Of a stretch of 64,000 nt of DNA, positions 21,059-40,144 are shown in pieces (within the stretch, counting starts at the first letter, position 1; each line of letters begins with the position of its first letter). Source of the DNA: a virus; the IMG/VR virus record IMGVR_UViG_3300030518_000006, positions 32,774 through 96,773 of that record; one strand, given 5' to 3'. Position numbers and translations under genes: made by a program. The notes under the pieces are model-generated. The model saw only the letters and a program-made list of their open reading frames with translations, was not told where the DNA came from and did no database searches.

Positions 21059-21065
21059 GCGGCTC

Positions 21066-21551: not shown

Positions 21552-21552
21552 T

Positions 21553-23520: not shown

Positions 23521-23523
23521 GCC

Positions 23524-25763: not shown

Positions 25764-25832
25764 CGTGCTAACTGGCCCCCGTTCACGAATTCCAGTAGAA
25801 TCCGCCACAACCCTGGATACAGTAGGCCACCT

Positions 25833-26267
25833 ATGATCCGCCGACGCCGCAGCCATCGCCGCTTCCGCCGCAACGCGCGCCCTGGTGAGAACCAGATCCC
25901 GACCGTGCGCATCGTCCGCCGGCCGAGCAAGAACCCCCGCCGCTTCATCCGCCGCAATGTGCCGATCACCCCGGCGCAGGCTGCCGCGATGAAGGCTGTC
26001 CTCCGAGCTCACGGCTACCTCAAGACCAACCCACTCCGCCGTCGCCACAAGCGGCGCAATCCCCGAAAGCACCGCATGGCACGCCATCACCGCAAGGTCC
26101 GCCGGAACCCCGCACCCCCGAAGGGCAAGCGCGCTGGCAGCGTGTTCAAGCGCAAGGGCAAGTGGTTCCGCATCTCACTCAAGAAGGTCCGCAAGGGTCG
26201 CCGCGTCGTCCGCCGCCGCGTCACCGTCAAGACCACCGCCCGCGCCGCGAAGCGCAGCCGCCGCTAA
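25833..26267 (+). CDS. Arg/Lys-rich core (DNA-condensing) protein with NP motifs
   Basis: 144 aa, extremely basic; SKNP, KTNP, RRNP x2. Confidence 0.7.
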   Translation: MIRRRRSHRRFRRNARPGENQIPTVRIVRRPSKNPRRFIRRNVPITPAQAAAMKAVLRAHGYLKTNPLRRRHKRRNPRKHRMARHHRKVRRNPAPPKGKRAGSVFKRKGKWFRISLKKVRKGRRVVRRRVTVKTTARAAKRSRR

Positions 26268-26301
26268 GCCTGCTCACCCTCACCTGATTCTGGAGACTCC
26301 C

Positions 26302-26532
26302 ATGCCCCGTCGCCGCCACAGCCGCTACCGCCGGAACCCCGGCAAGCTCCCCGTCAAGGTCACCTTCCGCAAGGGTGGCAAGCACGTGGTGATCTTCCGT
26401 CACCACAAGGCCACCGCCGCGACCAAGGCCAAGCGCCGGGCCGCGGGCAAGCGCCTTGCCAAGATGTGGACCGCCAAGGAGCGGATGGCGAACCTGCGCA
26501 AGGCGTGGGCTGCGAACCGCCGCCGTCGCTGA
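26302..26532 (+). CDS. Small basic core protein
   Basis: 76 aa; RRNPGK; RBS GGAG. Confidence 0.7.
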   Translation: MPRRRHSRYRRNPGKLPVKVTFRKGGKHVVIFRHHKATAATKAKRRAAGKRLAKMWTAKERMANLRKAWAANRRRR

Positions 26533-26605
26533 GTCGACCGTCAGCTGACCCGCAGCCCGGTCCTCCGCATCCTTGCGCGACCGGGCGGCACACCAGGACG
26601 AGCAC

Positions 26606-27697
26606 ATGCTCCCGCTCATCATCGGCATCGGCGCCGCAGCCCTCCTCCTCGGCCGTAAGGTCGTACGACGGACACGTCGGAATCCGCGGACGTATCGGCG
26701 GGTGAGTCGGAGGAATCCGCTAGAGGCCTATCACTTCTACTTCAGCACCCACCCGTCACTGATCCACGGGAAGCGTATCGGGTGGACCCGTTACGGCATG
26801 AGCGCCGAGCAAGTGAAACGGCTTGGCATCGCAGCAGCGAAACATGACTACCCGAAGGCCTGTGACTTCGCAGTGGCGAAGATCAAGAAAGGTTTACGGG
26901 CCAACCCCCTCCGCCGCGGCTCCTCCCGTGCCACCATCAGCGGCAACATCCGTAAGCTGATCCATGAAGGGCGCCCGCAGAAGCAGGCCATCGCCATCGC
27001 GCTGCGCACCGCTGGTGTCGCACGACGCAACCCGACCAACTGGGAGCAGCTGTTCGCCCAGGAGATGGCCCGCCAGCGCGCCGCTGGCACTGCAGCGCCC
27101 AAGCCGACCGGGTATGCAAGCGTCGCGACGATGCCGAACCCCGGGAAAATAGGGAATCGAATCGTCGCGCGTCACATGATCATGACGCAGGGGCGTGATA
27201 AATCTCTGCGCGAAGCGATTGATAAGCAACTCATGTATTCCCCTGGATCCAGGGAGCGTAAGAACTGGGCAGAGATTGCCCGTATCCTCGCGGGCAAGAC
27301 CAATCCACCCCGCCGCAAGGGCAAGCGCAAGGTCCGCCGCTCAAAGATCTCGGTGAGTCAGGCTGCGGCGCGGCTGATGCAGTGGCGGTGGCATCACAAC
27401 CCGGGAGGCAGCGATCTGGTGCCCTGGATTGTCGAGACCACCGAGATGCGCGGCTTCTCCCACGGCAAGCCCAACATCCGCACCGAGAAGAGCGCCTTCC
27501 GCGGTAAGAGCCACACCGCCAAGGCTCTCGCTGCTTGGGTGCTGCGCTACAACCAGTCCTTCACCTCGGGCGGGGTCAACAGTCACGCTTCCAAGGCCTT
27601 CGGCTACGAGCCCTACGCCTTCAAGGCCAAGCTGATCAACCAGCGCAATGGGCGAGTCGCCGCGACCTACAGCGCTCCGAAGTTCCAGGTGCTCTGA
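26606..27697 (+). CDS. N-terminally anchored basic multi-module protein with seven NP motifs (putative polyprotein)
   Basis: Start MLPLIIGIGAAALLLG; RRNP, RRNP, RANP, RRNP, MPNP, KTNP, HHNP separate distinct segments. Confidence 0.7.
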   Translation: MLPLIIGIGAAALLLGRKVVRRTRRNPRTYRRVSRRNPLEAYHFYFSTHPSLIHGKRIGWTRYGMSAEQVKRLGIAAAKHDYPKACDFAVAKIKKGLRANPLRRGSSRATISGNIRKLIHEGRPQKQAIAIALRTAGVARRNPTNWEQLFAQEMARQRAAGTAAPKPTGYASVATMPNPGKIGNRIVARHMIMTQGRDKSLREAIDKQLMYSPGSRERKNWAEIARILAGKTNPPRRKGKRKVRRSKISVSQAAARLMQWRWHHNPGGSDLVPWIVETTEMRGFSHGKPNIRTEKSAFRGKSHTAKALAAWVLRYNQSFTSGGVNSHASKAFGYEPYAFKAKLINQRNGRVAATYSAPKFQVL

Positions 27698-27700
27698 CCC

Positions 27701-30700
27701 ATGCGCTCCGCCACCCCCTCCCTCGCCGACGGCGACATCAACGCCGACTACAGCGTCCTGCCGGAGAACGGCAACGACGCGGTCGACGCGACCGTCCAGA
27801 AGATGGTCGAGATGGCGGCCGGCAAGTGGGGCCGCGAGAGTCCCAAGATCCGCGCTGCGGCGATCAACATCGTGCGGGGTCTGGATCCGATCACTGGCGA
27901 ACGATTCGCGCCTCAGGTCGCCAGCAAGGACTACTACGGGATGCTCGAGCAGATCCACAACTGGGTCCGCGACAACATCATGTATGTCAAGGACGTAGTG
28001 GGTCAGGAAACCCTGAGTTATCCCGAAGAAACGCTCTTCAACTCCCGTGCAGAGGACTGTGATGGGCAAGTGATTCTGGAGATGGCCCTCCTCGGCTCGA
28101 TCGGCTTGCAGAGCTATCCCGTCATCGTCGGGATGTTCCCGGGCCACTACTCACACGTCTACATGTATGCCGAGGTGCCCCCGGGGCGCCATCGCAACGC
28201 CGACACCACCTGGGCCGCCGATCCCATCATGAAGGACTGGCCGCTTGGCAGGGAGGCCCCGGCTGATAGGGTCAAGGCTAAGAAGGTCTACTCGAACCTC
28301 GCAGGATTTAACATGCCACTCAACGGATATGCTTCTTCCGACGCGGCGTTCTCTCCCCAGGACGAGCTCGAGGCCACGCAAGTCGGCACCGTGCTCGCCA
28401 CCCGCCTGACCGACTCCGGGGGTGCTGGGCAGATCGTCAATGCGAACCGCCTGACCCAGTGGGGCGATGAGCTGGACGACATGTTCAATGCCGAAGCGAC
28501 CGTCAATCCGATGCAGGCCGCGCCTGCCAGCCTGCTCTACGCCCGCGGCCCGGTGGTCGCCCGTGCAGCACGCGAGCAGACCTCCTACCTCAGCGAAGCC
28601 CCGCTCGGCGGGGGACGCAACCGGCCCGGGATGCGCCGTGGCCCCCTGATCATCACGGTCAAGGACAAGGCAGTCGGCGATTCGGTCACCAAGCCCAAGG
28701 CTCCGACCGTCAACGGCCTGATGGGCCTGGCAGACTACCTCGGTGAGCTCGCCCCGATCGCCAAGGTGGTCGGCAAGCGCATGAGCGTGAACGGCAAGCG
28801 CGACGCGCTCCATGCCACAGCGGCGGCAGCCCACCTCGCCAAGAACCAGGCCAAGAAGGCGACCAACCGGGTGGTCAAGCTGCAGCGCGACGGGTTCATG
28901 CCCGGCTTCGGCGCCGACATGCAGCCGGACAAGACGCTCGATGTCGCCATGCAGATCGAGAAGCTGGCCCACCAGGTCTCGGCCCAGGCCGATCAGATCG
29001 CCCAGCTCGCCGCCGGCAGCAGCCCACTCCGCCAGCAGGCCCTGAGTGTCGATCTCGGGGCGATGGACTACATGAACGAGCATGCCGCGGTGTCGGACCT
29101 GCTCGACAACATGCAGCTCCCCAACGTGCCGACCAAGGACATGGCCAAGCTCAAGTCCGTCGCCCTGGTCAACTGCATCCAGGATCCGGACGTCAAGCAG
29201 CTCGCCGTCGATCTCGCCCAGACCGATCTGCCGACCGCACCTGGTGCACGCGTCAAGACCCGGCTGCCCGAGGGCGCCATCGTGCGTGACCAGATGGGCA
29301 AGGTCATCCAGAATGGCGGGGGTGATGATAGCCTGGCCGGCCTGGGCGAACTCACCCGCAAGCGCCGCATCAAGCGCGCCCTGGCCGAGTTCAACGAGAG
29401 CACCGACACCAGCGCCATCGCCAACGCCCTGCGCGCCTCGGCGAATGGCCTGGCGGGCTACGCGAATGAACCGGGCCTCGGGCGTTCCCTGAGCCAGGCC
29501 ATCAGCGGCGTGGCCAAGTCCGTGGTCGCCAGCATCACGGTCCCCGTCAAAGCTGCGGTCGCGACCGTGGTCGACCCGATCAAGCTCGCCCAGACCGTCG
29601 CCACCGGCGGCTCGGTGAAGGCGGCGCTCACGAGTGACGTCCAGAACGTCACCAACCCGATGAACCAGGCGCTCAAGCAGATCGTCACCAGCACCCAGAA
29701 GGCTCCCTCGACCCCGGCGACCCCGGCGACCCAGTATGAAGACGCCAACGGCAATATCATCAGCGCTGGGTTGTACAACAGCCTGATGTTGAACCCGTCG
29801 ACCCCTGAGAGTTGCTTCGACGCGAACGGCAGCGCCCTGAACACGACCGGCTGCGTCTACGCGCCGGGCACCCCGGGCGCGACCGTGACCCAGACCACCG
29901 GCGCGTCGACCCTGTCCCAGTTCCCCGGCGGGACCTGCTTCAGCGCATCCGGTGCCTCGACCGGTGCGACCGGATGCTTCAGCCCGTCGACCGGTGCGGC
30001 CTGCTGGACCTTCACCAGCGCCACGACCGCCCCGACCGCGACCAACGCGGCCCCGGACTGCCCGATGGCTCCGGTGTCTGGATACAACCCCCAGGTCATG
30101 GGCCCCTATGCCAGCGGCCCGGGCGCTCAATGCTTCAACGTGACCACGGGTCAGCCGACCGGTGTGCCGGGATGCACGAGCCCCTCGACCGGTGTGGCGT
30201 GCTACGCCTGGCAGGGCCCGTCCGCCCCGCCGGTCGCGACCAATGCCGCGCCTGACTGCGCCGGGGCGACGTACAATCCGTACGCTGCCCAGCAGCCGTA
30301 CTATCCGCCCGGCGGCGGTGCGTCACCGTACGACCAGTCCACGCCCGATGGCACCAACTACGACCCGAATACGGGTGAGAGCCTGACCTCGACCCCGGAC
30401 TACTCCAACCAGGGTCCCCCGGACGACAGCGGCTTCGGGCCCGACCAGATGGGCCCGGCGTCCTATGCGGACAACAGTCAGCAGGACGAGAACACCGTGG
30501 CGGTCTCGGCCAGCGGTGGCGGCGGGTTCGACCCCTCGGGCAACTCGGGCATCACCGCCGGCGGCCAGTCTGACAGCGGTGATGATGGCTCGGATGATGG
30601 CGGCTCGGATGATGGCGGCTCGGATGATGGCGGCACTGATGATGGCTCGGGCGATGCGACCGATGTGTCCCAGTACAACGCCCCGTCCCAGGCCCCGAAG

Positions 30701-31027
30701 CACAAGAAGCACAAGTATTACAACATGGACACCGACTCGGGCGGTGACAACTCGGACACCAGCGACAGCGGCGAGGCCTCCGACGATGACAGTGACCTCG
30801 ACACCGGGATCAACGGCGACGTGGCCACGGGGGACATGTACCCCGAGGACGATCTCAACGAGGATGGGGGCGCCGGCTACGGCCGGGGCACCGCCCTGAC
30901 CCCGTCGATCGAAGGCCTCGGGGCCTTCTCCGCCTCCAGCCTGGTCAAGCCGGCACTCGCGATCGGCCTGGGCATCATCCTGTGGAAGACCGTCGGTAAG
31001 AAGCTCTTCAAGCGGAAGCGTGCCTGA
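27701..31027 (+). CDS. Transglutaminase-like (Cys-His-Asp) protein, candidate maturation protease, with long tail-anchored C-terminal region
   Basis: YVKD..ETL..P..EDCDG, SHVY, WAADP; then GFMPGFG/GLG motifs, Cys-rich repeats, acidic DDGGS repeats, TM + KKLFKRKRA. Confidence 0.8.
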   Translation: MRSATPSLADGDINADYSVLPENGNDAVDATVQKMVEMAAGKWGRESPKIRAAAINIVRGLDPITGERFAPQVASKDYYGMLEQIHNWVRDNIMYVKDVVGQETLSYPEETLFNSRAEDCDGQVILEMALLGSIGLQSYPVIVGMFPGHYSHVYMYAEVPPGRHRNADTTWAADPIMKDWPLGREAPADRVKAKKVYSNLAGFNMPLNGYASSDAAFSPQDELEATQVGTVLATRLTDSGGAGQIVNANRLTQWGDELDDMFNAEATVNPMQAAPASLLYARGPVVARAAREQTSYLSEAPLGGGRNRPGMRRGPLIITVKDKAVGDSVTKPKAPTVNGLMGLADYLGELAPIAKVVGKRMSVNGKRDALHATAAAAHLAKNQAKKATNRVVKLQRDGFMPGFGADMQPDKTLDVAMQIEKLAHQVSAQADQIAQLAAGSSPLRQQALSVDLGAMDYMNEHAAVSDLLDNMQLPNVPTKDMAKLKSVALVNCIQDPDVKQLAVDLAQTDLPTAPGARVKTRLPEGAIVRDQMGKVIQNGGGDDSLAGLGELTRKRRIKRALAEFNESTDTSAIANALRASANGLAGYANEPGLGRSLSQAISGVAKSVVASITVPVKAAVATVVDPIKLAQTVATGGSVKAALTSDVQNVTNPMNQALKQIVTSTQKAPSTPATPATQYEDANGNIISAGLYNSLMLNPSTPESCFDANGSALNTTGCVYAPGTPGATVTQTTGASTLSQFPGGTCFSASGASTGATGCFSPSTGAACWTFTSATTAPTATNAAPDCPMAPVSGYNPQVMGPYASGPGAQCFNVTTGQPTGVPGCTSPSTGVACYAWQGPSAPPVATNAAPDCAGATYNPYAAQQPYYPPGGGASPYDQSTPDGTNYDPNTGESLTSTPDYSNQGPPDDSGFGPDQMGPASYADNSQQDENTVAVSASGGGGFDPSGNSGITAGGQSDSGDDGSDDGGSDDGGSDDGGTDDGSGDATDVSQYNAPSQAPKHKKHKYYNMDTDSGGDNSDTSDSGEASDDDSDLDTGINGDVATGDMYPEDDLNEDGGAGYGRGTALTPSIEGLGAFSASSLVKPALAIGLGIILWKTVGKKLFKRKRA

Positions 31028-31029
31028 TC

Positions 31030-31905
31030 ATGCCCCTCCCCCGCCCCTTCGTCGACAATTCCTATCGGACTGAGAGCGTCGATCTCCAGCCGTTCGGGAA
31101 CACCGTGTCGATCGAGACGGGCTCGGACAACCCGTTCGAAGACGACCAGGGCATCGAGGTCGTAACCCAGCAGAGCGGGGGGATGGCGGGGCCTGATCCA
31201 CGGATGCGCTCGCGCAAGACCCTGGTCCGGGGAACACGCGTCACCGCGCATCCCGCCGGTGTGTCCCGTACGTACCACACCCGCAGCCAGGCCAATCGCC
31301 AGGGCTTCATGCCCGGGATGGCGGGGTTCGCCGGTCTGGGTATCGACATGCCGACTGATGACAGCGGTAGCGGCGGCGATGCCACCCCGGCCGATGCCAC
31401 CGACTTCAACGCCCTGACCACCGACCAGGATGCCTCCCTGTTCGCCCAGCCGGCACCCCAGAACCAGAACCTCTTCGCGATGCCTGCGCCGGGCCAGCCG
31501 GGCAGCGGCCTGCCCGCACCGAGCGCCGCAGCCACGCCTGCAGCTGCCCCTGCCGCCGCGCCTGCCGCTCCTGCAGCAGGTGGCGGGGGTGCAAAGGCTG
31601 CCAGTGGTGCGGCCACCGCCCTCACAGCGTTGACCGCCCTGACCCAGGCTGCCGGCCAGACCGGGACCGCGGTGCTCGCTGCCCAGACCAAGGCGGCCCA
31701 GGCGAAAGCAGCCCAGAGCAAGCTCCCAGCCGCAGCCAGCGCGCTCGGCAAGCAGGTCGAAACCTACTGGCCCTACATCGCTGGCGGTGTGGGCCTGGTG
31801 CTGGTGCTCGGCCTCGTCTTCGGTGGTGGCTCCCGCTCGACCACCGTCATCGCCGCGCCTGCAGCTGCTCCCGCCAAGACCAATCCCCGCAAACGCCGTC
31901 GCTGA
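31030..31905 (+). CDS. Tail-anchored virion protein, paralogue A
   Basis: ~100-aa leader ending GFMPGMAGFAGLG shared with next gene; TM then KTNPRKRRR. Confidence 0.75.
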   Translation: MPLPRPFVDNSYRTESVDLQPFGNTVSIETGSDNPFEDDQGIEVVTQQSGGMAGPDPRMRSRKTLVRGTRVTAHPAGVSRTYHTRSQANRQGFMPGMAGFAGLGIDMPTDDSGSGGDATPADATDFNALTTDQDASLFAQPAPQNQNLFAMPAPGQPGSGLPAPSAAATPAAAPAAAPAAPAAGGGGAKAASGAATALTALTALTQAAGQTGTAVLAAQTKAAQAKAAQSKLPAAASALGKQVETYWPYIAGGVGLVLVLGLVFGGGSRSTTVIAAPAAAPAKTNPRKRRR

Positions 31906-31914
31906 GAGATACCC

Positions 31915-32607
31915 ATGCCACTCCCCAAAGCATTCGTCGATAGCTCCTACCGCACCGAGCCCGTCGATCTGCAGCCCTTCGGCAACACGGTCTCGATCGA
32001 GACCGGCTCGGACAACCCGTTCGAGGATGACCAGGACGTGGAGATCTTCTCCCAGCAGAGCGGCGGGATGGCCGGGCCCGATCCGCGCATGCGTTCCAAG
32101 AAGACCCTGATCAAGGGCACCAAGGTCACGACCCACCAGGCTGGTGTGGCGCGCACCTACAAGACCCGCAGCCAGGCCAATCGCCAGGGCTTCATGCCCG
32201 GGATGGCGGGGTTCGCCGGTCTGGGTGCTGATCCGGCGCCAGGCCTGGACCAGGACGAGGGCAATCCGCCCGGCTACGTGCCGCCGGCTGGCCAAGCGGC
32301 CCCTGCATCCCCTGCTGCCCCTGCTGCCCCGCCCACCGGCGCCTGGGCCGCCCTGACGAGCCTGTTCTCCGCGGTTCCCGCCGGCGTCACCGCCTATGAG
32401 ACCGCCAAGAGCAACGCTCCCAAGCCCCCAGGCATGCCGCCTGCGGGCATGCCCCCGGCCCCCGGCAAGAGCACCAGCATCACCAAGATGCTGCCCTGGA
32501 TCCTGGGCGGTGTTGGCGTGCTGGTCGTCGGCGGCCTCCTGGCCGGCCGCAGCAAGCCGGCAACCGTGGTCGCCACCAATCCCCGCCGCCGGCGCCATCG
32601 CCGCTAA
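31915..32607 (+). CDS. Tail-anchored virion protein, paralogue B
   Basis: Same leader; TM then ATNPRRRRHRR. Confidence 0.75.
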   Translation: MPLPKAFVDSSYRTEPVDLQPFGNTVSIETGSDNPFEDDQDVEIFSQQSGGMAGPDPRMRSKKTLIKGTKVTTHQAGVARTYKTRSQANRQGFMPGMAGFAGLGADPAPGLDQDEGNPPGYVPPAGQAAPASPAAPAAPPTGAWAALTSLFSAVPAGVTAYETAKSNAPKPPGMPPAGMPPAPGKSTSITKMLPWILGGVGVLVVGGLLAGRSKPATVVATNPRRRRHRR

Positions 32608-32647
32608 CCCCACCAGACCTCTGCCCCTCTCCTGAAGGAACCGACCC

Positions 32648-33109
32648 ATGCAACGTGACATGTCCTACGAGCTCGACTCGGTGTTCTCTGGCCGAGGCGC
32701 TGGTGAGCTGGTGCAGGTCCAGCAGCCCCGCACCCGCATGAGCCGGACTCCCGGCCTGCAGCAGACCACCCGGTCCTCGGTGACCAAGATCAGCGCGCCG
32801 CTGGATCACAAGCTGTCCACGAGCCATCCCCACAACATCACGGCCCACAACACCAAGAGCCTGGCTCATGGTCTCGGCAAGCCGTTGAACGCCCGGTTCT
32901 ATACCGAGCCGAGCGACCTGGCAGGCATCGAGGATCTCGCCTGCGATGATGGGGACATGGGGATGGGGATGGGGGCCTATGATGACGATGACATGCCCTT
33001 CGGCGACCTGACCCTCCCGTTCATTGGCCCGGTCAGCAAGACCGGCGTCGCCATCGCCCTGATCTCCGGCTTCATCGCGTGGAAGCTGTTCAAGCCCAAG
33101 CGCGCATGA
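32648..33109 (+). CDS. Tail-anchored virion protein
   Basis: HGLG, DLAGIE; C-terminal TM + KLFKPKRA. Confidence 0.7.
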   Translation: MQRDMSYELDSVFSGRGAGELVQVQQPRTRMSRTPGLQQTTRSSVTKISAPLDHKLSTSHPHNITAHNTKSLAHGLGKPLNARFYTEPSDLAGIEDLACDDGDMGMGMGAYDDDDMPFGDLTLPFIGPVSKTGVAIALISGFIAWKLFKPKRA

Positions 33110-33594
33110 AAGCGATCCTGGGCATCGGCCGGCTGCTCGCACTGCACCTGGTCGATCCCACCACCGGTCGAACCACCACACGAAAGACCCCTGGCACATG
33201 GCTCGGATGGGACACCACGACGCGGCAATTCCTGCTCTGCAAGCCCAAGGGGCGCAGCCGGGCACCGTTACCGTCACGCGTCGTGCGGGCACATCGGCGA
33301 TTCCACGCCCACGATCCGGCCTCTGGTGGGCGCCTGGTGGAGGTGCCGACACCGATCGGACGGCGCCAGCAGATCGCGCTGATCAAGGCCCTGGACTACT
33401 TCGTGCCCAAGCAAGTGATCAGCCCCGACAAGAATCCGTTCGGGTGGACACACGCCTTTGGGGACACCGGCCACAAGGGCGGAACCTATACCGCGAAGGT
33501 GATGCCGGCGCTGGTCAGGGACTCGCGCGGTAACCTCTTCATCAAGCGGCGGAAGGGTAACATCTTCACCGTCGACACCTGGCTCCGAGGATAG
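33106..33594 (+). CDS. Hypothetical basic virion-module protein
   Basis: ATGA overlap; 162 aa. Confidence 0.6.
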   Translation: MKAILGIGRLLALHLVDPTTGRTTTRKTPGTWLGWDTTTRQFLLCKPKGRSRAPLPSRVVRAHRRFHAHDPASGGRLVEVPTPIGRRQQIALIKALDYFVPKQVISPDKNPFGWTHAFGDTGHKGGTYTAKVMPALVRDSRGNLFIKRRKGNIFTVDTWLRG

Positions 33595-33600
33595 AACACC

Positions 33601-34161
33601 ATGGCCGCCCTCCCCTTCAAACTCAAGATGAACGCCAAGACGCTCGGCATCGGCGCCGGTGCCCTGGTCGGCCTGTTCCTGGTCTACAAGCTCGCCTTCC
33701 ACAAGAGCAAGAAGGCGGCCGAGGATACCAGCACCTCCGGTGATGCCGCGGCCCTCGCCCAGATCCAAGCCCAGCTGAACCAGCAGGGCCAGACGCTCGC
33801 TGCGGCCACGGCGGCACCTGCAGCCCCAGCCTACGGCACCCCCGGATATGGGTTGCCCTACACCCCGGCGTATGCCGCTCCCACCTACGGCACCCCGGGC
33901 TATGTGGCCCCCTATGCGGCCCCGGGCACCACCCAGGCCTCAGGACCTCCTGCTACCCCGCCGGTCGGGGGGTACCAGTGGATCTGGAACGGCGCCGCCT
34001 GGACCCAGACCCCGGCCGCCACCCCGGTCGGGATGCACTGGCAGCAGCTGGGATCGACCTTCCAACTCGCCCCGAACGCTTCGAGCGTGGCCTACATCGA
34101 TCGCCGGCCGGCGAGCCCGGCCTCGATCATCCCGACCACGGTGCTCACGCCGCCGAACTAG
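33601..34161 (+). CDS. N-terminally anchored Pro/Ala/Tyr-rich protein
   Basis: TM near the N-terminus, AP.YGTPGY repeats. Confidence 0.65.
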   Translation: MAALPFKLKMNAKTLGIGAGALVGLFLVYKLAFHKSKKAAEDTSTSGDAAALAQIQAQLNQQGQTLAAATAAPAAPAYGTPGYGLPYTPAYAAPTYGTPGYVAPYAAPGTTQASGPPATPPVGGYQWIWNGAAWTQTPAATPVGMHWQQLGSTFQLAPNASSVAYIDRRPASPASIIPTTVLTPPN

Positions 34162-34764
34162 CAGATCTCCCGGTAGAGCATGCCGTCGAGCTGGACGCGC
34201 ACGTCCACGTGGCGGTCCCTCCAGTCGATGTCGCCGGTGTTGAGGACCAAGCTGAAGTGTTGAACGGGCGGGATATACAGGCTGGGAGTGATACCCAGGT
34301 GCTTGAGCCGAATCGGCGGCAACCCTGGCGCAGCAGCGGCGTCCTTCTCCACGTCGTCATCCCGCTCCATGTTCATGAGCGGCAGGTTGAAATAGAGCTT
34401 CTCACCGATCTGAAAGTAGAAAGACGCCTTCGAGATATCGACGACCTTGGAGAGCGAGATCCGGATCCCGTCGAGGAGAAATCGTTTCGGCCAGGTGAAT
34501 TGCCCGGCCGTGCGCATGTTGGTGTAGGCTTCAGACCGGCCGTTCGGATTATGGAAGAAGCAGATGGTGCTGTGGGCCGCCCACGGCTGGGTGTCATAGA
34601 TCGAGCGTCGCCCTTTCTCGAGGCGGACCCCTCCCTTGCGGTGGTCCTTGACATGGACGTACTCAACCGGGACTTCGACGAGCCAGGGGGCCCCCGTCCT
34701 TCTCTCCTTCATATACCTGGACGATCGAGCCTCTGCCCGGGTCTTCGAAGATCTTTTCAGCCAT
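34158..34764 (-). CDS. Capsid-protein paralogue, apparently frameshifted at a G5C5 run (or starting at 34712)
   Basis: RLEKGRRSIYD, YTNMRTAGQFTWPKRF, GEKLY, YIPPVQHF, LDGMLYREIC; RBS AAGGAG + ATG at 34764 is out of frame by one base. Confidence 0.7.
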
Positions 34765-34789
34765 GATGAATCTCCTTGTGGTGGTAGAG

Positions 34790-35692
34790 TTACTGGATTT
34801 CCCGGTGGATCGTGCCATCGAGTTGCACCCGGATCTCGGCCGACTCGAAATGCTTGCCGCCGGTATTGATGGTCAGGCCGAACCATTGGACCGGCGGGAT
34901 GTAGATCGTCGGGGTGATGCCCACGTGCTTCAGACGCATGCGCGGGAGCAGGGGGCCGTACTCGCCATCCTTGATCGGGTCGTCGTCCCGCTCCATGTTC
35001 TTGAGCGGCATGGTGAGGTACCTCTTCTCGCCGATCTGGAGTTCGAAGTGCGCCTCGGAGATGTCGACGAGGTGGGAGAATGAGATGCGCACGCCATCGA
35101 GATCGAAACGCTTGGGCCAGGTGAGCTGACCTGAGGTAGCTAGATTGGTGATTGCCGGCCCCCGATTCGGCCCGCCGCCGGTCTGGAAGAAGACGATCGG
35201 GGGTGGATTAGCGATGTACTCATCGCGGCGTCCCATCGGCACGTTGAACATGGTCCCATGGACCTGGGTGTCGTAGAGCGGCTGGCGACACGATTCCAGG
35301 CGGATCGTTCCGTTCTGAGCATCCTTGTGCTCGGTGAAGCGCGCACCGGGGGATGGTTTCAGGTCATCCAGGCCACGCGAGCCCTGCAAGGCATCATCCA
35401 GCTGCTTGGCAAGATCTGCGTCTGATACGTCCTCGAAGCCGGTCAGGGATTGCCAGTACTCCTCGGTCGAGCGAAAGACCTGGCCTTTCTCCGGCTTGGG
35501 GTCCTTGGTCTTCTTCGGTGGTTTGGTCGCGGCAGGCATGGAGAGATCTCCTGGCATGGGGTTGGTGGTGCGCGTCATGTGACGTTGGAGCACCTCTTGG
35601 ATGGTGAGCTGGTAGGACTCCGAATGTGCTTTGTACCAAGCCAGCACATCGGGATCGATGCGCATGGTGATCGAGGTTTTCTTCTTGGGCAT
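34790..35692 (-). CDS. BrnA-like ribbon-helix-helix domain fused to a capsid-protein paralogue
   Basis: N-term MPKKKTSITMRIDPDVLAWYKAHSESYQLTIQEVL (BrnA-like); C-term IRLESCRQPLYD..TNLATSGQLTWPKRF..GEKRYLTMP..IYIPPVQWF..LDGTIHREIQ. Confidence 0.8.
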   Translation of the reverse strand: MPKKKTSITMRIDPDVLAWYKAHSESYQLTIQEVLQRHMTRTTNPMPGDLSMPAATKPPKKTKDPKPEKGQVFRSTEEYWQSLTGFEDVSDADLAKQLDDALQGSRGLDDLKPSPGARFTEHKDAQNGTIRLESCRQPLYDTQVHGTMFNVPMGRRDEYIANPPPIVFFQTGGGPNRGPAITNLATSGQLTWPKRFDLDGVRISFSHLVDISEAHFELQIGEKRYLTMPLKNMERDDDPIKDGEYGPLLPRMRLKHVGITPTIYIPPVQWFGLTINTGGKHFESAEIRVQLDGTIHREIQ

Positions 35693-35697
35693 ACCTG

Positions 35698-35726
35698 TAT
35701 GTACGTAGATACGTACAGACTTGCAA
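35698..35726 (-). promoter_or_regulatory. Leaderless promoter with palindromic operator
   Basis: Minus strand TTGCAA-17-TACATA-5-ATG; TGTACGTA-GA-TACGTACA palindrome at 35700-35717. Confidence 0.65.
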
Positions 35727-35888
35727 GACCCGAGACGTACATACGAGCTGGGTCTTGGTGCATCGGGCGAAGGGCATAGGCTGGGCCGTGTCGCATGTGG
35801 TTGCGCCGCCTCCTCTGCTGGGGCCGCCCGATCAACAGCATATGTGCAATCGCTTCTGCCGCTCCTGATGAGCGTGACGAGAACCCCG

Positions 35889-36728
35889 ATGCCCATGATG
35901 CTGATGTCCAATCCAGGTCTGCACCTCGCCCTGCTCGGGAACCCGTATCGCGGTCGTTCCCGCAAGCGCCGTCATTCCTGTTCCAACCCTCGTCGTTCAC
36001 ACCGCCGTGCGTCCGCACGTCGGCACCGTCGTTCCCACACCCAAAGGAGAAACCCCATGGGATTCGCCAAGCAGTACGTGAGCTCCGTCAAGGCAGCTCC
36101 CCGTGAGATCCTCGGGATCTTCAAGGGCAAGAACAAGATCAAGAACATCGCCTTCGCGCTCGGTGGCGCCGTCGCCACCTACGCCCTGGGCGGAATCGTC
36201 AACACCTCACTCGTGACCCCCGGTCTCAACGCCATCCCTGGCGCGGGTCCGGCGCTCAGCGGCCCGATGGCCAAGCGCGTGATCGGTGCGGCAGTGCCCT
36301 TCACCCTCGGCTTCGTCGCCAACAAGTTCATCAAGGGTGACCTCGGCAAGGCCCTGGTGGTTGGTGGGGCTATCGCCTCGCTCGCCGAGGCGATCAGCCC
36401 CGGGCTCATCGCCCGCCTGGTCTACCACACCCCGGCTGTCGGCCCCGTGGCCGTTGCTGCAGCGCCTGCTGCCGCTGTCCAGGGCCCGGTGAACGGTCTG
36501 AATGGTCTCGGGGGCTACGTTGACGCGCGTGCGTACAACGGCACCGGGGACATGGCCCCGCTCGACGGCTATGTCGACGCCCGCGCCTACAACGGCACCG
36601 GCGAAGAGCTGGCCGGCTATGTCGACGCCCGCGCCTACAACGGCACCGGGGACATGGACGATGACCTGGCTGGCATCGGCAGCGACTACCTGACCGAGAG
36701 CACCAAGTACATGGAATCCTATCTCTGA
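35889..36728 (+). CDS. Putative major membrane/scaffolding protein
   Basis: Basic N-terminus with four NP motifs, Gly-rich hydrophobic core, three GYVDARAYNGTG repeats; directly upstream of the capsid gene. Confidence 0.65.
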   Translation: MPMMLMSNPGLHLALLGNPYRGRSRKRRHSCSNPRRSHRRASARRHRRSHTQRRNPMGFAKQYVSSVKAAPREILGIFKGKNKIKNIAFALGGAVATYALGGIVNTSLVTPGLNAIPGAGPALSGPMAKRVIGAAVPFTLGFVANKFIKGDLGKALVVGGAIASLAEAISPGLIARLVYHTPAVGPVAVAAAPAAAVQGPVNGLNGLGGYVDARAYNGTGDMAPLDGYVDARAYNGTGEELAGYVDARAYNGTGDMDDDLAGIGSDYLTESTKYMESYL

Positions 36729-36926
36729 TTGAGGTAGACCATACGTAGGGGCCGCCCGTGGGCCCCTGCCGCTCTTTCCCAATCTCTTCACCGCCTTCAT
36801 TCGGTTCGCTGCCCACCGGCGCTTTGCATGTGGGACTGACAACGACCCGTATACCCATTCCTGGAACAACGAGGAAGCCCCTCACGTTCCGGGTCCCCTG
36901 AATCCCCTCTTGGGGAGGAGAACACA

Positions 36927-37502
36927 ATGCCCGTCTTCCGCACCGTCAAGGATGCCCGCTCCGGCTCGATCCGGCTCGAAGCCATCCACCAGCCGCTGTA
37001 TGACAGCGTGCTGCTCGCCACCACCCTGCAGACGTCCGCAACGCTGTTCTCCCTCGGGAACAACGGTCGCTCGGCGCTCTACACCAACCTCCAGACCGCT
37101 GGCCAGCTCAGCTGGCCGAAGCGCTTCTCGATCCGCGCCCTGCGTCAGGTGCTCGGCTTCAACAGCGCGACCTACGCCAACGTGGCCGCCTTCTGGGCTG
37201 CGGCGTTCTACCAGCTGCAGGTGGGTGAAAAGGTTTATCTCACCATCCCGGCGTTCATCCTCACCGCCGGCGGCGGCCTGAGCCAGCAGACCCTGGTCCC
37301 GGCTACCGCCACCACGGCGGGAACCATCAACTGTGAAACCGGCTGGCCGGACCAGCGGAATATCTACTCGCTGCTGCACTCGATTTATTTGCCGCCCGTG
37401 CAGAACTTCTTCCTGGCACTGACGACCGCTGGCGGGACCCTGACCGCTTCGACGTACTGCCACATCTTCCTGGAAGGTGAGCTGCTCCGCGAAATCCAGT
37501 AA
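36927..37502 (+). CDS. Putative major capsid protein (single jelly-roll-like)
   Basis: 191 aa beta-rich; strong RBS GGAGGAG, last gene of the virion operon, followed by a strong terminator; three paralogues elsewhere. Fold is inferred. Confidence 0.6.
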   Translation: MPVFRTVKDARSGSIRLEAIHQPLYDSVLLATTLQTSATLFSLGNNGRSALYTNLQTAGQLSWPKRFSIRALRQVLGFNSATYANVAAFWAAAFYQLQVGEKVYLTIPAFILTAGGGLSQQTLVPATATTAGTINCETGWPDQRNIYSLLHSIYLPPVQNFFLALTTAGGTLTASTYCHIFLEGELLREIQ

Positions 37503-37526
37503 GCCAAACGGTTTACAAGGATTCAC

Positions 37527-37563
37527 GAAAAACCCCGGGCTTCGGCTCGGGGTTTTTCCTTTT
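37527..37563. terminator. Bidirectional intrinsic terminator
   Basis: GAAAAACCCCGGGC-TTCG-GCTCGGGGTTTTTC between convergent genes. Confidence 0.9.
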
Positions 37564-37566
37564 CTC

Positions 37567-37851
37567 CTAGGCCTCCGGAGGCCGCACTACCACCTCCAAC
37601 AACCCATCCAGCGCACTGACGAACTGCTGCTGCACCGCTTTGGCCAGCTCCTCGCTCGGGTATTCGCAGCTGTACATCTGTCCGCTGGACATCTCCAGCT
37701 GGATGACCCAGCCCAGGTCCGGCTTCTCCTGATCCGGCCGCAGCGGTTTGCTCGATCTGCGCAGCGCCGCCGGGCGCATACATACGATCTGACCCGCCTC
37801 GATCCACTGCTGGTGTTCGGGGGGTGATCCAGGATTGAACAGCACAAGCAT
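37567..37851 (-). CDS. Hypothetical protein
   Basis: 94 aa, RBS GGAGG. Confidence 0.55.
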   Translation of the reverse strand: MLVLFNPGSPPEHQQWIEAGQIVCMRPAALRRSSKPLRPDQEKPDLGWVIQLEMSSGQMYSCEYPSEELAKAVQQQFVSALDGLLEVVVRPPEA

Positions 37852-37883
37852 ATTGCCTCCTACGGAACGGGTTTCATAGTGGG

Positions 37884-38111
37884 ATGATGGACCTGCACGA
37901 TGCGATTGCCTCGCTCCCTGAGATGGAGCGCCTGATCATCCGGCTGCGGTGGCTCGAGCAGTTCTCAGTGGATGACATCGCGCATTGCCTCCGCATCGCC
38001 CCCGACCAGGTACTCGCCTACGACACCCAGGCCCGCGACCGCCTACGCCGGCGGCTTGACCCAGCTGACCTGCATTCCTTCGATCTGGGCCCACTTGAGC
38101 ACGTCGGCTAG
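37884..38111 (+). CDS. Sigma-70 region 4-like HTH protein
   Basis: AIASLPEMERLIIRLRW..SVDDIAHCL..ARDRLRR. Confidence 0.65.
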   Translation: MMDLHDAIASLPEMERLIIRLRWLEQFSVDDIAHCLRIAPDQVLAYDTQARDRLRRRLDPADLHSFDLGPLEHVG

Positions 38112-38861: not shown

Positions 38862-39173
38862 CTAGGCCTTCTCTGCGTCCTTGACGGGCGCTATACCGAT
38901 GATGGTACGAATCCGGGCCTTGGCCACCTCGCTGAGTCCCTGGAAGGCCAAGTCGATCATCTCCGGGTGGTCATTCACCAGCTCGCCGAAGACCTTGGAT
39001 GCGATATACTTGCCCGCCCCGTCCTTCTTCGCCAGGTTCTTACCCGCGGTGATCGCCGGGATGATCCCCATCATGTCGAGCTTGAACCCGTTGCCGGCGA
39101 AGAGCCCGTCGAGCGTCGAGCGGATGGTACCGAGCACCTTCTGGACGTCGGGGTCGGTGGAGTGGTCGGTCAT
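38862..39173 (-). CDS. Hypothetical protein
   Basis: Tightly coupled ORF. Confidence 0.6.
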   Translation of the reverse strand: MTDHSTDPDVQKVLGTIRSTLDGLFAGNGFKLDMMGIIPAITAGKNLAKKDGAGKYIASKVFGELVNDHPEMIDLAFQGLSEVAKARIRTIIGIAPVKDAEKA

Positions 39174-40144
39174 GGGAGCTCCAGCTCGGGTTCGGGCAGA
39201 GCGTCGACCTCCGCCTGGTCGGCGGGAGCGGCATCGTCAGGGGCGATCGTGGCGACCGGGTCCTCCAGGATCCGGAGGTCGGGGCGATCGTGGGCGACTC
39301 CCGTCGGGTCGGTGAGAATACCGCGGTAGATCGCGCGGTTCTTGATCACCCGGTGGACCTTCCCCTTGTACCAGATCTTGGCGCCGTGCCCATTCTCCCG
39401 CAGGTAGCGCGCAACCTCGTTCAAGGTCATCTTGGCGCCGTCGACCAGGGAGAAGATCAGGCGAACGATCGGAGCCTTCTGAGGGTCGATCGTCAGGTCG
39501 TGGTTGACCACCATGTACCCATAGGGCTTGTTCCCCCCGATCCACCCACCACGGGCGTACTTGTTCTGGGTCCCCAGCTTCATGCGCATCTGGATCAGGT
39601 GGCGCTCGTACTGGGCGAAGGACCCGAGCACCTGACGCATCAGCACGCGCACCGGATCCGCGCTGGCGGCAGAGTCGGCCAGGAAGCTCTCGCTCGCGTA
39701 GGCGACCCCCAGGGTGATGGCGTGGCGCTCGAAGAAGGAGAACAGCATATCCTGCTCGGCGGCGACACGCGACAGGCGGTCGAGCTTCCAGATCAGCAGC
39801 TTGGACCGATCCTGCTCGCACAGCTTGGACTGGTCGCGCTCGCACAGCTTGGCGATCAGGGAGGACAGCAGCGGTCGGGGCGATGCCGCGGGCACCTCCT
39901 CGGGTTTCATGCCCGGGAGGCGGACGGTGAACAAGGGCTTGGCGGCCGACGCCTTCTCGTAGACGATCCGCGGCTCGGGGATGCCCGAGCGCTGGCAGTA
40001 GCCGAGGATCGCCGTCCGCTGGACATCCGGCGACTCGTTGTCCTCGTGCGTGTCATCACTGACACGGACGTAGGCCCATATCGTTGGCAGCGGCTTCTCG
40101 CCGAAGGCATCCGCGATGCCGGTAAGGGTGGTGATGAAGCTCAT
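39170..40144 (-). CDS. Serine recombinase (catalytic + recombinase domain)
   Basis: AYVRVS, KLDRLSR, FAQYER..I..R, GG..PYGY. Confidence 0.9.
   Translation of the reverse strand: MSFITTLTGIADAFGEKPLPTIWAYVRVSDDTHEDNESPDVQRTAILGYCQRSGIPEPRIVYEKASAAKPLFTVRLPGMKPEEVPAASPRPLLSSLIAKLCERDQSKLCEQDRSKLLIWKLDRLSRVAAEQDMLFSFFERHAITLGVAYASESFLADSAASADPVRVLMRQVLGSFAQYERHLIQMRMKLGTQNKYARGGWIGGNKPYGYMVVNHDLTIDPQKAPIVRLIFSLVDGAKMTLNEVARYLRENGHGAKIWYKGKVHRVIKNRAIYRGILTDPTGVAHDRPDLRILEDPVATIAPDDAAPADQAEVDALPEPELELP

What the first reader, a model, noticed from the sequence alone, without database searches (positions are those of the whole stretch)
34158..35726. Antisense, apparently self-regulated cassette of two capsid-protein paralogues, one fused to a BrnA-like DNA-binding domain
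Seen: inside the rightward virion operon two leftward genes repeat the motif string of the putative major capsid protein (RLE..QPLYD / TN..T.GQL.WPKRF / GEK.Y..P / Y.PPVQ.F / L.G...REI). Both replace the capsid's Gly/Thr-rich segment (AGGGLSQQTL..GWPDQRN) with a shared charged loop MERDDD..P..RLKH.GITP. The first has an N-terminal segment resembling BrnA-type antitoxin RHH domains and a leaderless promoter whose spacer holds an 8-bp-arm palindrome. Inference: exapted capsid proteins acting as dominant-negative decoys (superinfection exclusion or assembly poisoning), or a repressor that senses capsid protein of an incoming or induced virus. I know of no described RHH-capsid fusion.
Basis: partly seen in the sequence, partly recalled or inferred. 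Interest (0 to 1): 0.9.

Follow-up and report, generated by a model that had tools for sequence, protein, structure and literature searches.

The report
DNA-binding domain fused to capsid-like protein
An uncultivated ~97-kb virus encodes, next to its probable capsid gene, a copy of that capsid-like protein fused to a small DNA-binding domain whose only matching DNA site lies on the gene's own promoter, so it probably controls its own production; this gene design has not been described and its purpose is untested.

Summary
Two leftward genes are paralogues of the 191-aa protein at 36927-37502 (31% identity, E 6e-22 and 4e-23) and of a fourth copy at 16892-17653. The first gene, 34790-35692 (start at 35692, not 35726), has a true BrnA-type ribbon-helix-helix (RHH) N-terminus (Pfam 37.2 bits, cut-off 26.1), a disordered linker and a jelly-roll domain. 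The 18-bp palindrome at 35700-35717 is unique in the 96.8-kb genome. It overlaps a TTGCAA-17-TACATA motif 5 nt before the ATG. A relative at 37% identity has a different perfect palindrome in the same place.

The 191-aa protein folds as a single jelly roll, closest to the SPV1 capsid protein (Z 9.6). "Capsid" is therefore probable, not proven.

New here:
- About 16 protein clusters carry the RHH-jelly-roll fusion, with BrnA-like or Arc-like RHH, all in one of the family's three clades.
- No BrnT toxin gene is present.
- The second paralogue is frameshifted at a G5C5 run here, intact in sister strains and absent from a 95-97% identical relative, so it is dispensable.

Most likely it is an autogenously repressed capsid paralogue. 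Decoy, capsid-sensing and virion roles are untested. The scan's index shows no look-alike elsewhere.

The parts
34790..35692 (-). Gene for the RHH-linker-jelly-roll fusion protein (300 aa, P0003; stop codon 34790-34792)
   Evidence: ORF and start-codon survey. Orthologues at 51-66% identity start at the same place. dN/dS against L001 is 0.40.
35576..35686 (-). BrnA-type ribbon-helix-helix DNA-binding domain (residues 3-39)
   Evidence: Pfam PF14384, 37.2 bits against a cut-off of 26.1; PHROG 4692 antitoxin, E 9e-5. The AlphaFold2 model has helices at 14-21 and 25-43.
35339..35575 (-). Pro/Lys-rich linker, predicted disordered (residues 40-118). Some orthologues carry a CxxC...CxxC zinc ribbon here.
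   Evidence: pLDDT is below 60 over most of residues 44-118. The alignment shows the zinc-ribbon insert in P0006-P0009 and P0015.
34793..35338 (-). Single jelly-roll domain (residues 119-300), paralogous to P0002
   Evidence: BLASTP E 6e-22 against P0002. pLDDT is above 90. VIA-align best matches are viral capsid or scaffold jelly rolls, Z 7.7-7.8.
34925..34996 (-). Charged loop MERDDDPIKDGEYGPLLPRMRLKH (residues 233-256), between strands F and G of the jelly roll. It replaces the Gly/Thr-rich hairpin of P0002.
   Evidence: Alignments; the loop is almost invariant among the orthologues P0006-P0012. Its place in the fold follows from the strand order.
35697..35744 (.). Candidate operator. The perfect 18-bp palindrome is at 35700-35717. 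Three copies of the half-site GTATGTACGT lie at 35697-35706, 35711-35720 (1 mismatch) and 35735-35744.
   Evidence: The palindrome and all half-sites with at most 1 mismatch occur only here in the 96.8-kb genome.
35698..35726 (-). Promoter-like motif: TTGCAA (35726-35721), 17 nt, TACATA (35703-35698), then 5 nt to the ATG. No Shine-Dalgarno sequence at a usable distance, so the mRNA may be leaderless.
   Evidence: Read from the sequence. G003 has the same layout, TTGCAG-17-TATATA-7 nt-ATG. The generic scan did not call it.
34158..34818 (-). Second, RHH-less paralogue, a diverged tandem partial copy of the fusion's jelly-roll domain. It is frameshifted here. The intact forms in sister strains have 201 aa (ATG 34764) or 219 aa (ATG 34818). 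Here the only in-frame start is ATG 34712 (184 aa), which has no Shine-Dalgarno sequence.
   Evidence: dN/dS against the fusion's jelly roll is 0.33. The gene is absent from L001 and G003.
34686..34695 (-). GGGGGCCCCC run. One C fewer joins the Shine-Dalgarno-led frame (AAGGAG 34777-34772, ATG 34764) to the jelly-roll frame.
   Evidence: Sequence. The intact variants P0162 and P0161 read ...EGEKDGGPWLVEV.... The frameshifted form was seen on 67 contigs and the intact forms on 7.
36927..37502 (+). P0002, the 191-aa single jelly-roll protein and probable major capsid protein. It belongs to clade B, the only clade found in every related virus record examined.
   Evidence: AlphaFold2 pLDDT 85.9, pTM 0.82. 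VIA-align SPV1 6oj0_T, Z 9.6, rmsd 3.8, 141 residues aligned. It is 71% identical in G003, the best-conserved gene of the module. Related records.
35889..36728 (+). Divergently transcribed gene for a basic, NP-motif protein that precedes P0002. Its start is inferred near 35889.
   Evidence: ORF. The start is inferred from the conserved N-terminus MP(M/L)MLMSNPG in the window and G003. Homologues precede the P0002 orthologue in G003 and L005.
37527..37558 (+). Strong stem-loop terminator (14 pairs) just after P0002
16892..17653 (+). P0004, the fourth paralogue. It belongs to clade A, which has a conserved N-terminal FPDPxRFPPPxG...CGCL extension.

Best explanation
The core of the finding is one gene, not two. 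It encodes a protein with three parts: an N-terminal BrnA-type ribbon-helix-helix (RHH) DNA-binding domain, a flexible linker of about 80 residues, and a single jelly-roll domain. The jelly roll is a paralogue of the virus's conserved jelly-roll protein P0002, the probable major capsid protein.

Proposed mechanism:
1. Two RHH domains pair and bind the palindromic operator that overlaps the -10 and spacer of the gene's own, probably leaderless, promoter. The protein thereby represses its own transcription. It may also affect the divergent operon 150-200 bp away that holds the basic-protein gene and P0002.
2. The jelly-roll domain keeps the family's conserved core motifs. It engages capsid-family proteins, or co-assembles with them, through contacts between jelly-roll domains.
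3. The free pool that occupies the operator therefore falls when assembly proceeds. This keeps the protein at a low, assembly-coupled dose.

The second leftward gene is a diverged tandem partial duplicate without the RHH. It is co-transcribed from the same promoter when intact. It is dispensable and variable: frameshifted here, intact in sister strains, absent in a close relative.

Shown: the domain architecture, the paralogy, the jelly-roll fold, the uniqueness and positional conservation of the operator-like palindrome, the conservation of the fusion in about 16 protein clusters, and the absence of a BrnT partner. Inferred: DNA binding, repression, a leaderless transcript, capsid identity of P0002, and any contact between the jelly-roll domains.
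For: - RHH domain: Pfam PF14384 above the gathering cut-off. The same domain is precomputed on orthologues P0006, P0007 and P0010-P0012 and scored on P0015.
- Operator: a perfect 18-bp palindrome, unique in the window and in the genome. All half-sites cluster within 50 bp of the ATG.
- Positional conservation: G003, whose fusion is 37% identical, has a different perfect palindrome, GTATATACGCGTATATAC, at the same place over the -10-like hexamer. It is unique in that 21-kb locus. The residues of the predicted DNA-reading strand differ between the two proteins, TSITMRID against KLISLRID.
- Synteny: the fusion gene lies divergent to the basic-protein and P0002 pair in the window, L001 and G003.
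- Breadth: fusions with BrnA-like or Arc/HicB/NikA-like RHH occur in about 16 clusters at 90% identity, several on contigs of 55-118 kb. In the family tree the 14 included there all fall in clade C (SH-aLRT 94).
- Fold: jelly roll with pLDDT above 90. The P0002 model is closest to the SPV1 capsid protein, Z 9.6, with the next unrelated row at 7.4.
- Not a toxin-antitoxin pair: no BrnT (PF04365) in the genome.
- Precedent: viral RHH repressors that bind their own promoter and also control a structural gene are established, for example SvtR of SIRV1 (PMC5569661).
Against: - No experiment or expression data exist for this gene.
- The generic promoter scan did not call the site, and the host's promoter rules are unknown.
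- Only two independent operator versions could be compared, because the DNA of the other orthologues could not be fetched.
- A regulator whose only site is its own promoter has no evident output unless the jelly-roll domain does something else. What that is remains unshown.
- The capsid role of P0002 rests on fold similarity (Z 9.6), conservation and context only. Four unrelated tandem beta-rich paralogues at 10870-13622 are alternative capsid candidates.
- Related viruses G005 (with terminal repeats) and the Planctomycetota contig L005 show only clade B. Clade C is therefore not detectably universal.
Confidence: 0.4

Rival explanations
1. The fusion is an ordinary, low-copy virion component, such as a vertex or penton protein or a second capsomer protein. 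Clade C would be the structural partner of the hexamer-forming clade B protein. The RHH would be an internal N-terminal arm that binds DNA. It could serve autogenous dosage control, or it could tether or recognise the viral genome at its one specific site, as a packaging adaptor does.
For: - SPV1, the best structural match, builds hexamers (VP4) and pentamers (VP10) from two jelly-roll paralogues over an internal membrane (PMC8459092).
- Half of clade C (14 of 28 rows) lacks an RHH and consists of plain proteins of 170-215 aa, like structural proteins.
- G003, complete with terminal repeats, has exactly one member of each clade A, B and C.
- The genome gave no match to the one terminase (Terminase_6N), HK97-capsid (Phage_capsid) or FtsK Pfam model tried, so how it recognises DNA for packaging is unknown. 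The RHH site is unique in the genome.
Against: - The gene is antisense to the structural operon and has its own promoter-like motif.
- The unique site lies exactly over the -10 and spacer, which fits repression better than packaging.
- Many tail-anchored membrane proteins in the module suggest an internal membrane between shell and DNA. An N-terminal arm could hardly reach the genome across it.
- Clade C was not detected in G005 or in the 20.6-kb locus L005.
- The fusion is far less conserved than P0002: 37% against 71% identity with G003.
Confidence: 0.22
2. The cassette would be an immunity or exclusion module. The capsid paralogues would poison assembly of related superinfecting viruses, or the RHH fusion would be a repressor released when it meets incoming or induced capsid protein.
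For: - The gene lies antisense, with its own promoter, inside a late operon, as morons often do.
- The genome encodes a serine recombinase at 39170-40144, so a temperate lifestyle is possible.
- The second paralogue shows presence, absence and frameshift variation among near-identical strains. Such variation is typical of accessory conflict genes.
- The charged F-G loop is almost invariant among orthologues.
Against: - The fusion keeps its position next to the P0002 operon between genomes only 37% identical. That is unlike a mobile moron.
- The only operator is on its own promoter, so release of the repressor would switch on nothing except itself and, at most, a dispensable copy.
- There is no evidence of lysogeny. 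The records are free viral contigs, and G003 has terminal repeats.
Confidence: 0.12
3. The family is not a capsid family. The jelly roll would be a ligand- or glycan-binding or spike-type domain, and the fusion a one-component RHH transcription factor with a jelly-roll sensor domain. P0002 and P0004 would be unrelated in function to the shell.
For: - Apart from SPV1, all structural matches have Z below 8, the range that the tool itself calls common for unrelated jelly rolls. They include glycoside hydrolases of family GH172, PHM, GOLD domains and tail-fibre tips.
- There is no Pfam, PHROG, NCBIfam or PDB sequence match.
- P0004 lies outside the main structural block, beside a DNA methyltransferase.
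Against: - SPV1 stands 2 Z units above the next row and covers 141 of 178 residues. The capsid proteins of HCIV-1, HHIV-2, P23-77 and FLiP all follow.
- P0002 is the most conserved gene of the module, single-copy, present in every related record, and followed by a strong terminator.
- Atlas clusters of the family are 88-100% viral.
Confidence: 0.15
4. The fusion is a BrnA antitoxin of a type II toxin-antitoxin pair, with the second paralogue or the C-terminal domain as the toxin.
For: The Pfam BrnA_antitoxin match lies above the cut-off. A PHROG 'antitoxin' family matches. A palindromic operator on the promoter is typical of toxin-antitoxin autoregulation.
Against: - No BrnT (PF04365) is present in the genome.
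- Only profile positions 32-68 of 68 are matched, taken to be the RHH half.
- The downstream gene is absent from two of the three genomes, while the fusion persists.
- The C-terminal domain is a jelly roll paralogous to a conserved virion-module protein.
Confidence: 0.02

Closest known systems
BrnA antitoxin (Pfam PF14384) and the RHH (Arc/MetJ/CopG) repressor superfamily
   Same: The N-terminal 40 residues match the BrnA profile above its gathering score. A strand-helix-helix motif is followed by nothing else DNA-binding. A palindromic site overlaps the gene's own promoter, as in toxin-antitoxin, Arc, Mnt and CopG autoregulation.
   Different: There is no BrnT toxin. Only profile positions 32-68 of the 68-position BrnA model are matched, taken to be its RHH half. 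The domain sits at the N-terminus of a 300-aa protein, and its C-terminal partner is a viral jelly-roll domain rather than a toxin-binding tail.
[quoted passage not shown]
   Same: A virus-encoded RHH protein binds its own promoter and also controls a virion structural gene (PMC5569661). The layout is similar, with the regulator next to structural genes.
   Different: SvtR is a stand-alone 6.6-kDa RHH from an archaeal virus. Here the RHH is covalently joined to a paralogue of the structural protein itself. Only one site exists in the genome.
Single jelly-roll capsid proteins VP4 and VP10 of Sulfolobus polyhedral virus 1 (Portogloboviridae), and VP16/VP17-type proteins of P23-77, HCIV-1 and HHIV-2
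   Same: These are the best structural matches to the P0002 model: SPV1 Z 9.6, the others Z 6.0-7.2. Several jelly-roll paralogues occur per genome. The module is rich in membrane proteins, as in viruses with an internal membrane.
   Different: There is no sequence similarity. The genome is 4-5 times larger (97 kb against about 20 kb). The host is probably bacterial (a Planctomycetota-binned contig). None of the known proteins carries a DNA-binding domain. No FtsK/A32-type ATPase was detected with PF01580.
Autogenous control of assembly proteins (P22 scaffolding protein; RNA-phage coat protein as translational repressor)
   Same: The concept is the same: the unassembled pool of a structural or assembly protein represses synthesis, coupling expression to assembly. 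This comparison rests on my own knowledge and was not tested here.
   Different: Those examples act on mRNA and use the structural protein itself. Here a dedicated transcription-factor domain is fused to a capsid paralogue and would act on DNA.

Membership tests
BrnA antitoxin (type II BrnTA) | Match to the PF14384 profile above the gathering score | tested here: met
   37.2 bits against a cut-off of 26.1, residues 3-39. Only profile positions 32-68 of 68 are covered.
BrnA antitoxin (type II BrnTA) | Cognate BrnT toxin gene (PF04365) encoded with it | tested here: not met
   No match at E up to 1 in the whole 96.8-kb genome. The neighbouring genes are a jelly-roll paralogue and virion-module genes.
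BrnA antitoxin (type II BrnTA) | Small stand-alone protein with a toxin-binding part and an RHH | tested here: not met
   The protein has 300 aa, with the RHH at the extreme N-terminus followed by a linker and a 180-aa jelly roll.
RHH autorepressors (Arc/MetJ/CopG superfamily) | Strand-helix-helix fold that pairs into a dimer | tested here: inconclusive
   The Pfam RHH-family match and two modelled helices at 14-21 and 25-43 fit. The strand is not formed in the monomer model. Dimerisation was not modelled.
RHH autorepressors (Arc/MetJ/CopG superfamily) | Inverted or tandem repeat operator overlapping the gene's own promoter | tested here: met
   A unique 18-bp palindrome and three half-sites lie at 35697-35744 over the -10 and spacer. 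G003 has a different palindrome in the same position.
RHH autorepressors (Arc/MetJ/CopG superfamily) | Sequence-specific DNA binding and repression | not testable with these tools
   Needs a gel-shift or footprint assay and a reporter assay.
Single jelly-roll capsid proteins of membrane-containing dsDNA viruses (SPV1 and P23-77/HCIV-1 type) | Eight-stranded jelly-roll fold resembling known capsid proteins | tested here: met
   P0002 model: pLDDT 85.9. SPV1 6oj0_T Z 9.6, rmsd 3.8, 141 residues; HCIV-1 7.2; HHIV-2 7.2; P23-77 VP17 7.1. Fusion domain: Z 7.7 to SPV1 6oj0_Z.
Single jelly-roll capsid proteins of membrane-containing dsDNA viruses (SPV1 and P23-77/HCIV-1 type) | Protein is present in the virion shell as hexameric or pentameric capsomers | not testable with these tools
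   Needs virion proteomics or cryo-EM.
Single jelly-roll capsid proteins of membrane-containing dsDNA viruses (SPV1 and P23-77/HCIV-1 type) | Genome also encodes an FtsK/HerA (A32-like) packaging ATPase | tested here: inconclusive
   PF01580 gave no match in the genome. Other ATPase profiles were not tried, and most genes have no family.
Known anti-phage defence or exclusion systems | Match to a PADLOC model | tested here: inconclusive
   No match for the fusion, the intact second paralogue, P0002, P0004, P0015 or P0031. The library holds only described systems.

The most novel reading that the evidence does not exclude
The fusion would be a capsid-assembly-sensing transcription factor. A paralogue of the major capsid protein has been exapted as the sensor domain of an RHH repressor. 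The free protein would repress its own promoter and the adjacent divergent capsid operon, and it would be titrated away when its jelly-roll domain joins growing capsomers. Transcription of capsid genes would thus have direct feedback from shell assembly. This would be the first DNA-level assembly checkpoint described for a virus of this architecture, and it would be conserved in a group of ~100-kb viruses that gave no match to the terminase and HK97-capsid models tried.
Probability: 0.25. Interest if true: 0.8.

Novelty: new variant of a known kind. Interest (0 to 1): 0.62.

Why it matters
RHH repressors and jelly-roll capsid proteins are both textbook modules, but I found no description of the two joined in one protein. 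Here the fusion is conserved in about 16 protein clusters from large uncultivated viruses, with two flavours of RHH, so it is functional rather than accidental.

If the jelly roll still contacts capsid proteins, the protein links DNA binding to capsid assembly. It could do so as an assembly-coupled regulator or as a sequence-specific tether between genome and shell. Either role would be new.

The finding also gives a handle on a poorly known virus group. These genomes have about 100 kb, gave no match to the terminase, HK97-capsid or FtsK models tried, carry an SPV1-like jelly-roll protein, and are probably hosted by Planctomycetota. The predictions are directly testable with a 45-residue domain and a 50-bp DNA fragment.

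Tried and rejected
- **Complex prediction.** P0002 with the fusion's jelly-roll domain (residues 115-300) gave 'no answer' (score 0.17, mark 0.32, controls not run). This is no evidence either way.
- **The look-up of encoding contigs.** The genomic contexts of P0006-P0012, P0025, P0064, P0191 and P0192 could not be read, so operator covariation rests on two versions only.
- **The look-up of sequencing runs.** Read-level heterogeneity at the G5C5 run and expression could not be checked.
- **Contig scans.** The metagenome-contig scan with the fusion alignment found nothing. The scan with the Arc-type alignment returned only clade B genes. Viral contigs with P0025 found nothing.
- **Family libraries.** Pfam, PHROGs and PDB sequence searches of the family profile gave no family. 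A phmmer search of the 46-aa RHH against PDB sequences found nothing. NCBIfam gave no family for P0003, the intact second paralogue, P0002 or P0004, and only sub-threshold DnaJ and RHH hits for P0015 and P0031. PADLOC gave nothing.
- **Promoter scan.** The sigma-70 scan called no promoter in 33500-38000.
- **Tandem paralogues at 10870-13622.** Two of the four were compared by profile-profile alignment with the family and are not detectably related. The Atlas had no model for one of them.
- **Rejected: toxin-antitoxin reading.** There is no toxin gene, and the partner gene is dispensable.
- **Rejected: the 242-aa ORF as the real product of the second gene.**
- **Rejected: assembly error as the cause of the frameshift.** The same form occurs on 67 contigs and the intact forms on 7.
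Full report
**What is there**

The window is the right-hand 64 kb of a single 96,773-bp viral record. IMG/VR classes it as linear, and CheckV estimates it as complete.

Rightward genes run from about 20283 to 34161. Two leftward ORFs follow. Two more rightward genes then end at 37502, in front of a strong terminator at 37527-37558.

The first leftward gene is 34790-35692 and encodes 300 aa (P0003). Its start is the ATG at 35692, not 35726. Orthologues begin at the same MPKKK/MALKK.

The second leftward ORF is 34158-34886 (P0001). It overlaps the 3' end of the first gene in another frame.

**Check of the observation**

- The fusion and P0001 are 49% identical (E 1e-54).
- Each is 31% identical to the 191-aa protein at 36927-37502, called P0002 (E 6e-22 and 4e-23).
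- tblastn of the whole genome finds one more paralogue, P0004, at 16892-17653.
It also shows the Gly/Thr-rich segment of P0002 replaced by NMERDDD...LPxxRLKH in both leftward proteins.
- Residues 3-39 of the fusion match Pfam BrnA_antitoxin at 37.2 bits (cut-off 26.1). The match covers profile positions 32-68 of 68, taken to be the RHH part. PHROGs agrees.
- The palindrome TGTACGTA-GA-TACGTACA at 35700-35717 is unique in the window (0.01 expected) and in the genome.
- Three copies of the 10-mer half-site cluster at 35697-35744 and occur nowhere else.
- The palindrome overlaps TTGCAA-17 nt-TACATA, which ends 5 nt before the ATG. There is no Shine-Dalgarno sequence at a usable distance.
- The generic sigma-70 scan did not call this site, so the promoter is a reading of the sequence, not a tool result.

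**Fold**

An AlphaFold2 model of P0002, built on 78 family members, is confident (pLDDT 85.9, pTM 0.82) and is an eight-stranded jelly roll.

An exhaustive structural comparison puts the SPV1 capsid protein first (6oj0_T, Z 9.6, rmsd 3.8, 141 of 178 residues). That is 2 Z units above the next row. The single jelly-roll capsid proteins of HCIV-1, HHIV-2 and P23-77 and the FLiP capsid protein follow at Z 6-7. Foldseek agrees weakly.

The model of the fusion has two N-terminal helices, a disordered linker (residues 44-118) and a jelly roll with pLDDT above 90. Its best matches are again viral capsid or scaffold jelly rolls, but at Z below 8.

By strand order, the segment that differs between P0002 and the leftward proteins is the loop between strands F and G. 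From general knowledge of upright jelly-roll capsid proteins, that loop lies on the outer, tower side. This is an inference.

**The family**

A profile of the four paralogues finds 256 representatives at 50% identity among 1.8 billion. None has a Pfam, PHROG or PDB sequence match. Atlas clusters are 88-100% viral.

A tree of 71 jelly-roll domains gives three clades:
- **Clade A** contains P0004 and has a conserved N-terminal FPDPxRFPPPxG...CGCL extension (support 98).
- **Clade B** contains P0002 and consists of plain proteins of about 190 aa (support 99).
- **Clade C** (support 94) holds every RHH fusion in the tree, P0001, and 14 plain proteins.

The fusions come with BrnA-like RHH (P0003, 6, 7, 10, 11, 12, 15, 25, 193) or with Arc/HicB/NikA-like RHH (P0031, 42, 46, 64, 191). 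P0192 and P0195 are counted as fusions only from their length and their coverage of the Arc-type profile (97% and 92% of the query). That makes about 16 clusters at 90% identity, several on contigs of 55-118 kb. Some carry a zinc ribbon in the linker. The architecture is therefore old and maintained.

**Comparative context**

- G003 has 109.5 kb, terminal repeats and an estimated 100% completeness. It has exactly one member of each clade. Its fusion is 37% identical and lies divergent to the same pair of genes for the basic protein and P0002, as in the window.
- Upstream of the G003 fusion lies TTGCAG-17-TATATA-7 nt-ATG. A different perfect palindrome, GTATATACGCGTATATAC, covers the -10-like hexamer and is unique in that locus.
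- The residues of the predicted DNA-reading strand also differ: TSITMRID here, KLISLRID there.
- Clade B is the only clade found in all related records. These are G001-G008 and many metagenome loci, including a contig binned with a Planctomycetota genome that keeps the module's gene order but has no leftward cassette.
- P0002 is the best-conserved gene of the module, 71% identical with G003 against 35-61% for its neighbours.
- The genome gave no match to Terminase_6N, Phage_capsid (HK97) or FtsK profiles. It encodes a family A polymerase, SNF2 and UvrD helicases, methyltransferases and a serine recombinase.

**The second paralogue**

- L001 is 95-97% identical around the cassette, and it lacks this gene. 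There the fusion's stop abuts the convergent 186-aa gene, a difference of 630 bp.
- The 3' part of P0001 is about 70% identical in DNA to the 3' part of the fusion. It is therefore a diverged tandem partial duplicate. dN/dS between the two is 0.33.
- A good Shine-Dalgarno sequence (AAGGAG) and the ATG at 34764 open a frame that stops after 33 codons.
- One C fewer in the GGGGGCCCCC run at 34686-34695 would join that frame to the jelly-roll frame.
- Exactly that intact protein exists in sister strains: P0162 with 201 aa and P0161 with 219 aa, on 7 contigs. The frameshifted form occurs on 67 contigs.
- The gene is therefore dispensable and variable. It may be phase-variable, or it may be decaying.

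**Interpretation**

No BrnT toxin gene is present, and the downstream gene is optional. This is not a toxin-antitoxin pair.

The simplest mechanism is autogenous repression. RHH dimers would sit on the operator over the gene's own promoter. This is established behaviour for the RHH superfamily, including viral SvtR, which also controls a structural gene (PMC5569661).

The operator is the only site in the genome, so the protein's other activity must lie in the jelly roll. That domain is a paralogue of the probable shell protein. I therefore favour dosage control coupled to assembly, through contacts between jelly-roll domains (confidence 0.40).

A genuine low-copy virion protein, penton-like as SPV1 VP10 (PMC8459092), or a tether between genome and shell is the main rival (0.22). 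The two readings overlap.

**Limits**

There are no expression or binding data. Only two operator versions could be compared.

Noticed in passing
window 16892-17653 and proteins P0013, P0017-P0026, P0032, P0033, P0039-P0045: Clade A of the jelly-roll family carries a conserved N-terminal extension, ...LxPKxxxxFPDPxRFPPPxGxxxxCGCLxTxW. Its function is unknown. It is the largest clade with an N-terminal extension among the 71 domains in the tree (28 rows), and here it lies beside a DNA methyltransferase rather than in the main structural block.
   Followed up: partly
proteins P0006-P0009 and P0015 (linker of the fusion orthologues): Some orthologues have a CxxC...CxxC zinc ribbon (weak DnaJ_CXXCXGXG match) inserted in the linker between the RHH and the jelly roll. 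The window's protein lacks it.
   Followed up: partly
window 35555-35575 (residues 40-46 of the fusion): The motif RTxNPMPG(D/E) just after the RHH is conserved in most close orthologues within an otherwise variable linker. It resembles the basic xxNP motifs repeated in the neighbouring 335-aa protein (SNPG, GNPY, SNPR, RRNPM). It is absent in P0015 and changed to DHP in P0012. It might be a shared processing or targeting signal.
   Followed up: partly
whole genome G000 (96,773 bp); window = 32774-96773: CheckV estimates the viral record as complete, yet it gave no match to Terminase_6N, HK97 Phage_capsid or FtsK profiles. It encodes a 1625-aa protein with a family A DNA polymerase domain, SNF2 and UvrD helicases, several methyltransferases, a VRR-NUC nuclease and a serine recombinase. 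Most genes have no family.
   Followed up: partly
L005 (JANXQG010000447.1, Planctomycetota MAG contig, 22 kb): This contig, binned with a Planctomycetota genome, has a syntenic virion module, including homologues of the 171-aa protein, the basic NP-motif protein, P0002 and the serine recombinase. It is a hint at the host phylum.
   Followed up: partly
window 35889-36728: The gene before P0002 encodes an Arg/His-rich N-terminal third with four xxNP motifs, a hydrophobic middle part and three tandem GYVDARAYNGTG repeats. Its homologue in L005 is much longer (517 aa) and extremely basic.
   Followed up: no
window 35724-35731 and 35750-35757: An 8-bp perfect inverted repeat, CAAGACCC/GGGTCTTG, brackets the third operator half-site in the divergent intergenic region. 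A block GCGCAAC(C/T)ACATGC (about 35791-35805) is the only intergenic stretch conserved with G003.
   Followed up: no
Two of them showed no profile-profile relation to the jelly-roll family here. They remain alternative shell-protein candidates.
   Followed up: partly
window 34158-34161: The rightward 186-aa gene and the leftward second paralogue end on overlapping stop codons with no terminator between them. Late rightward transcription could therefore run antisense through the cassette towards P0002.
   Followed up: no
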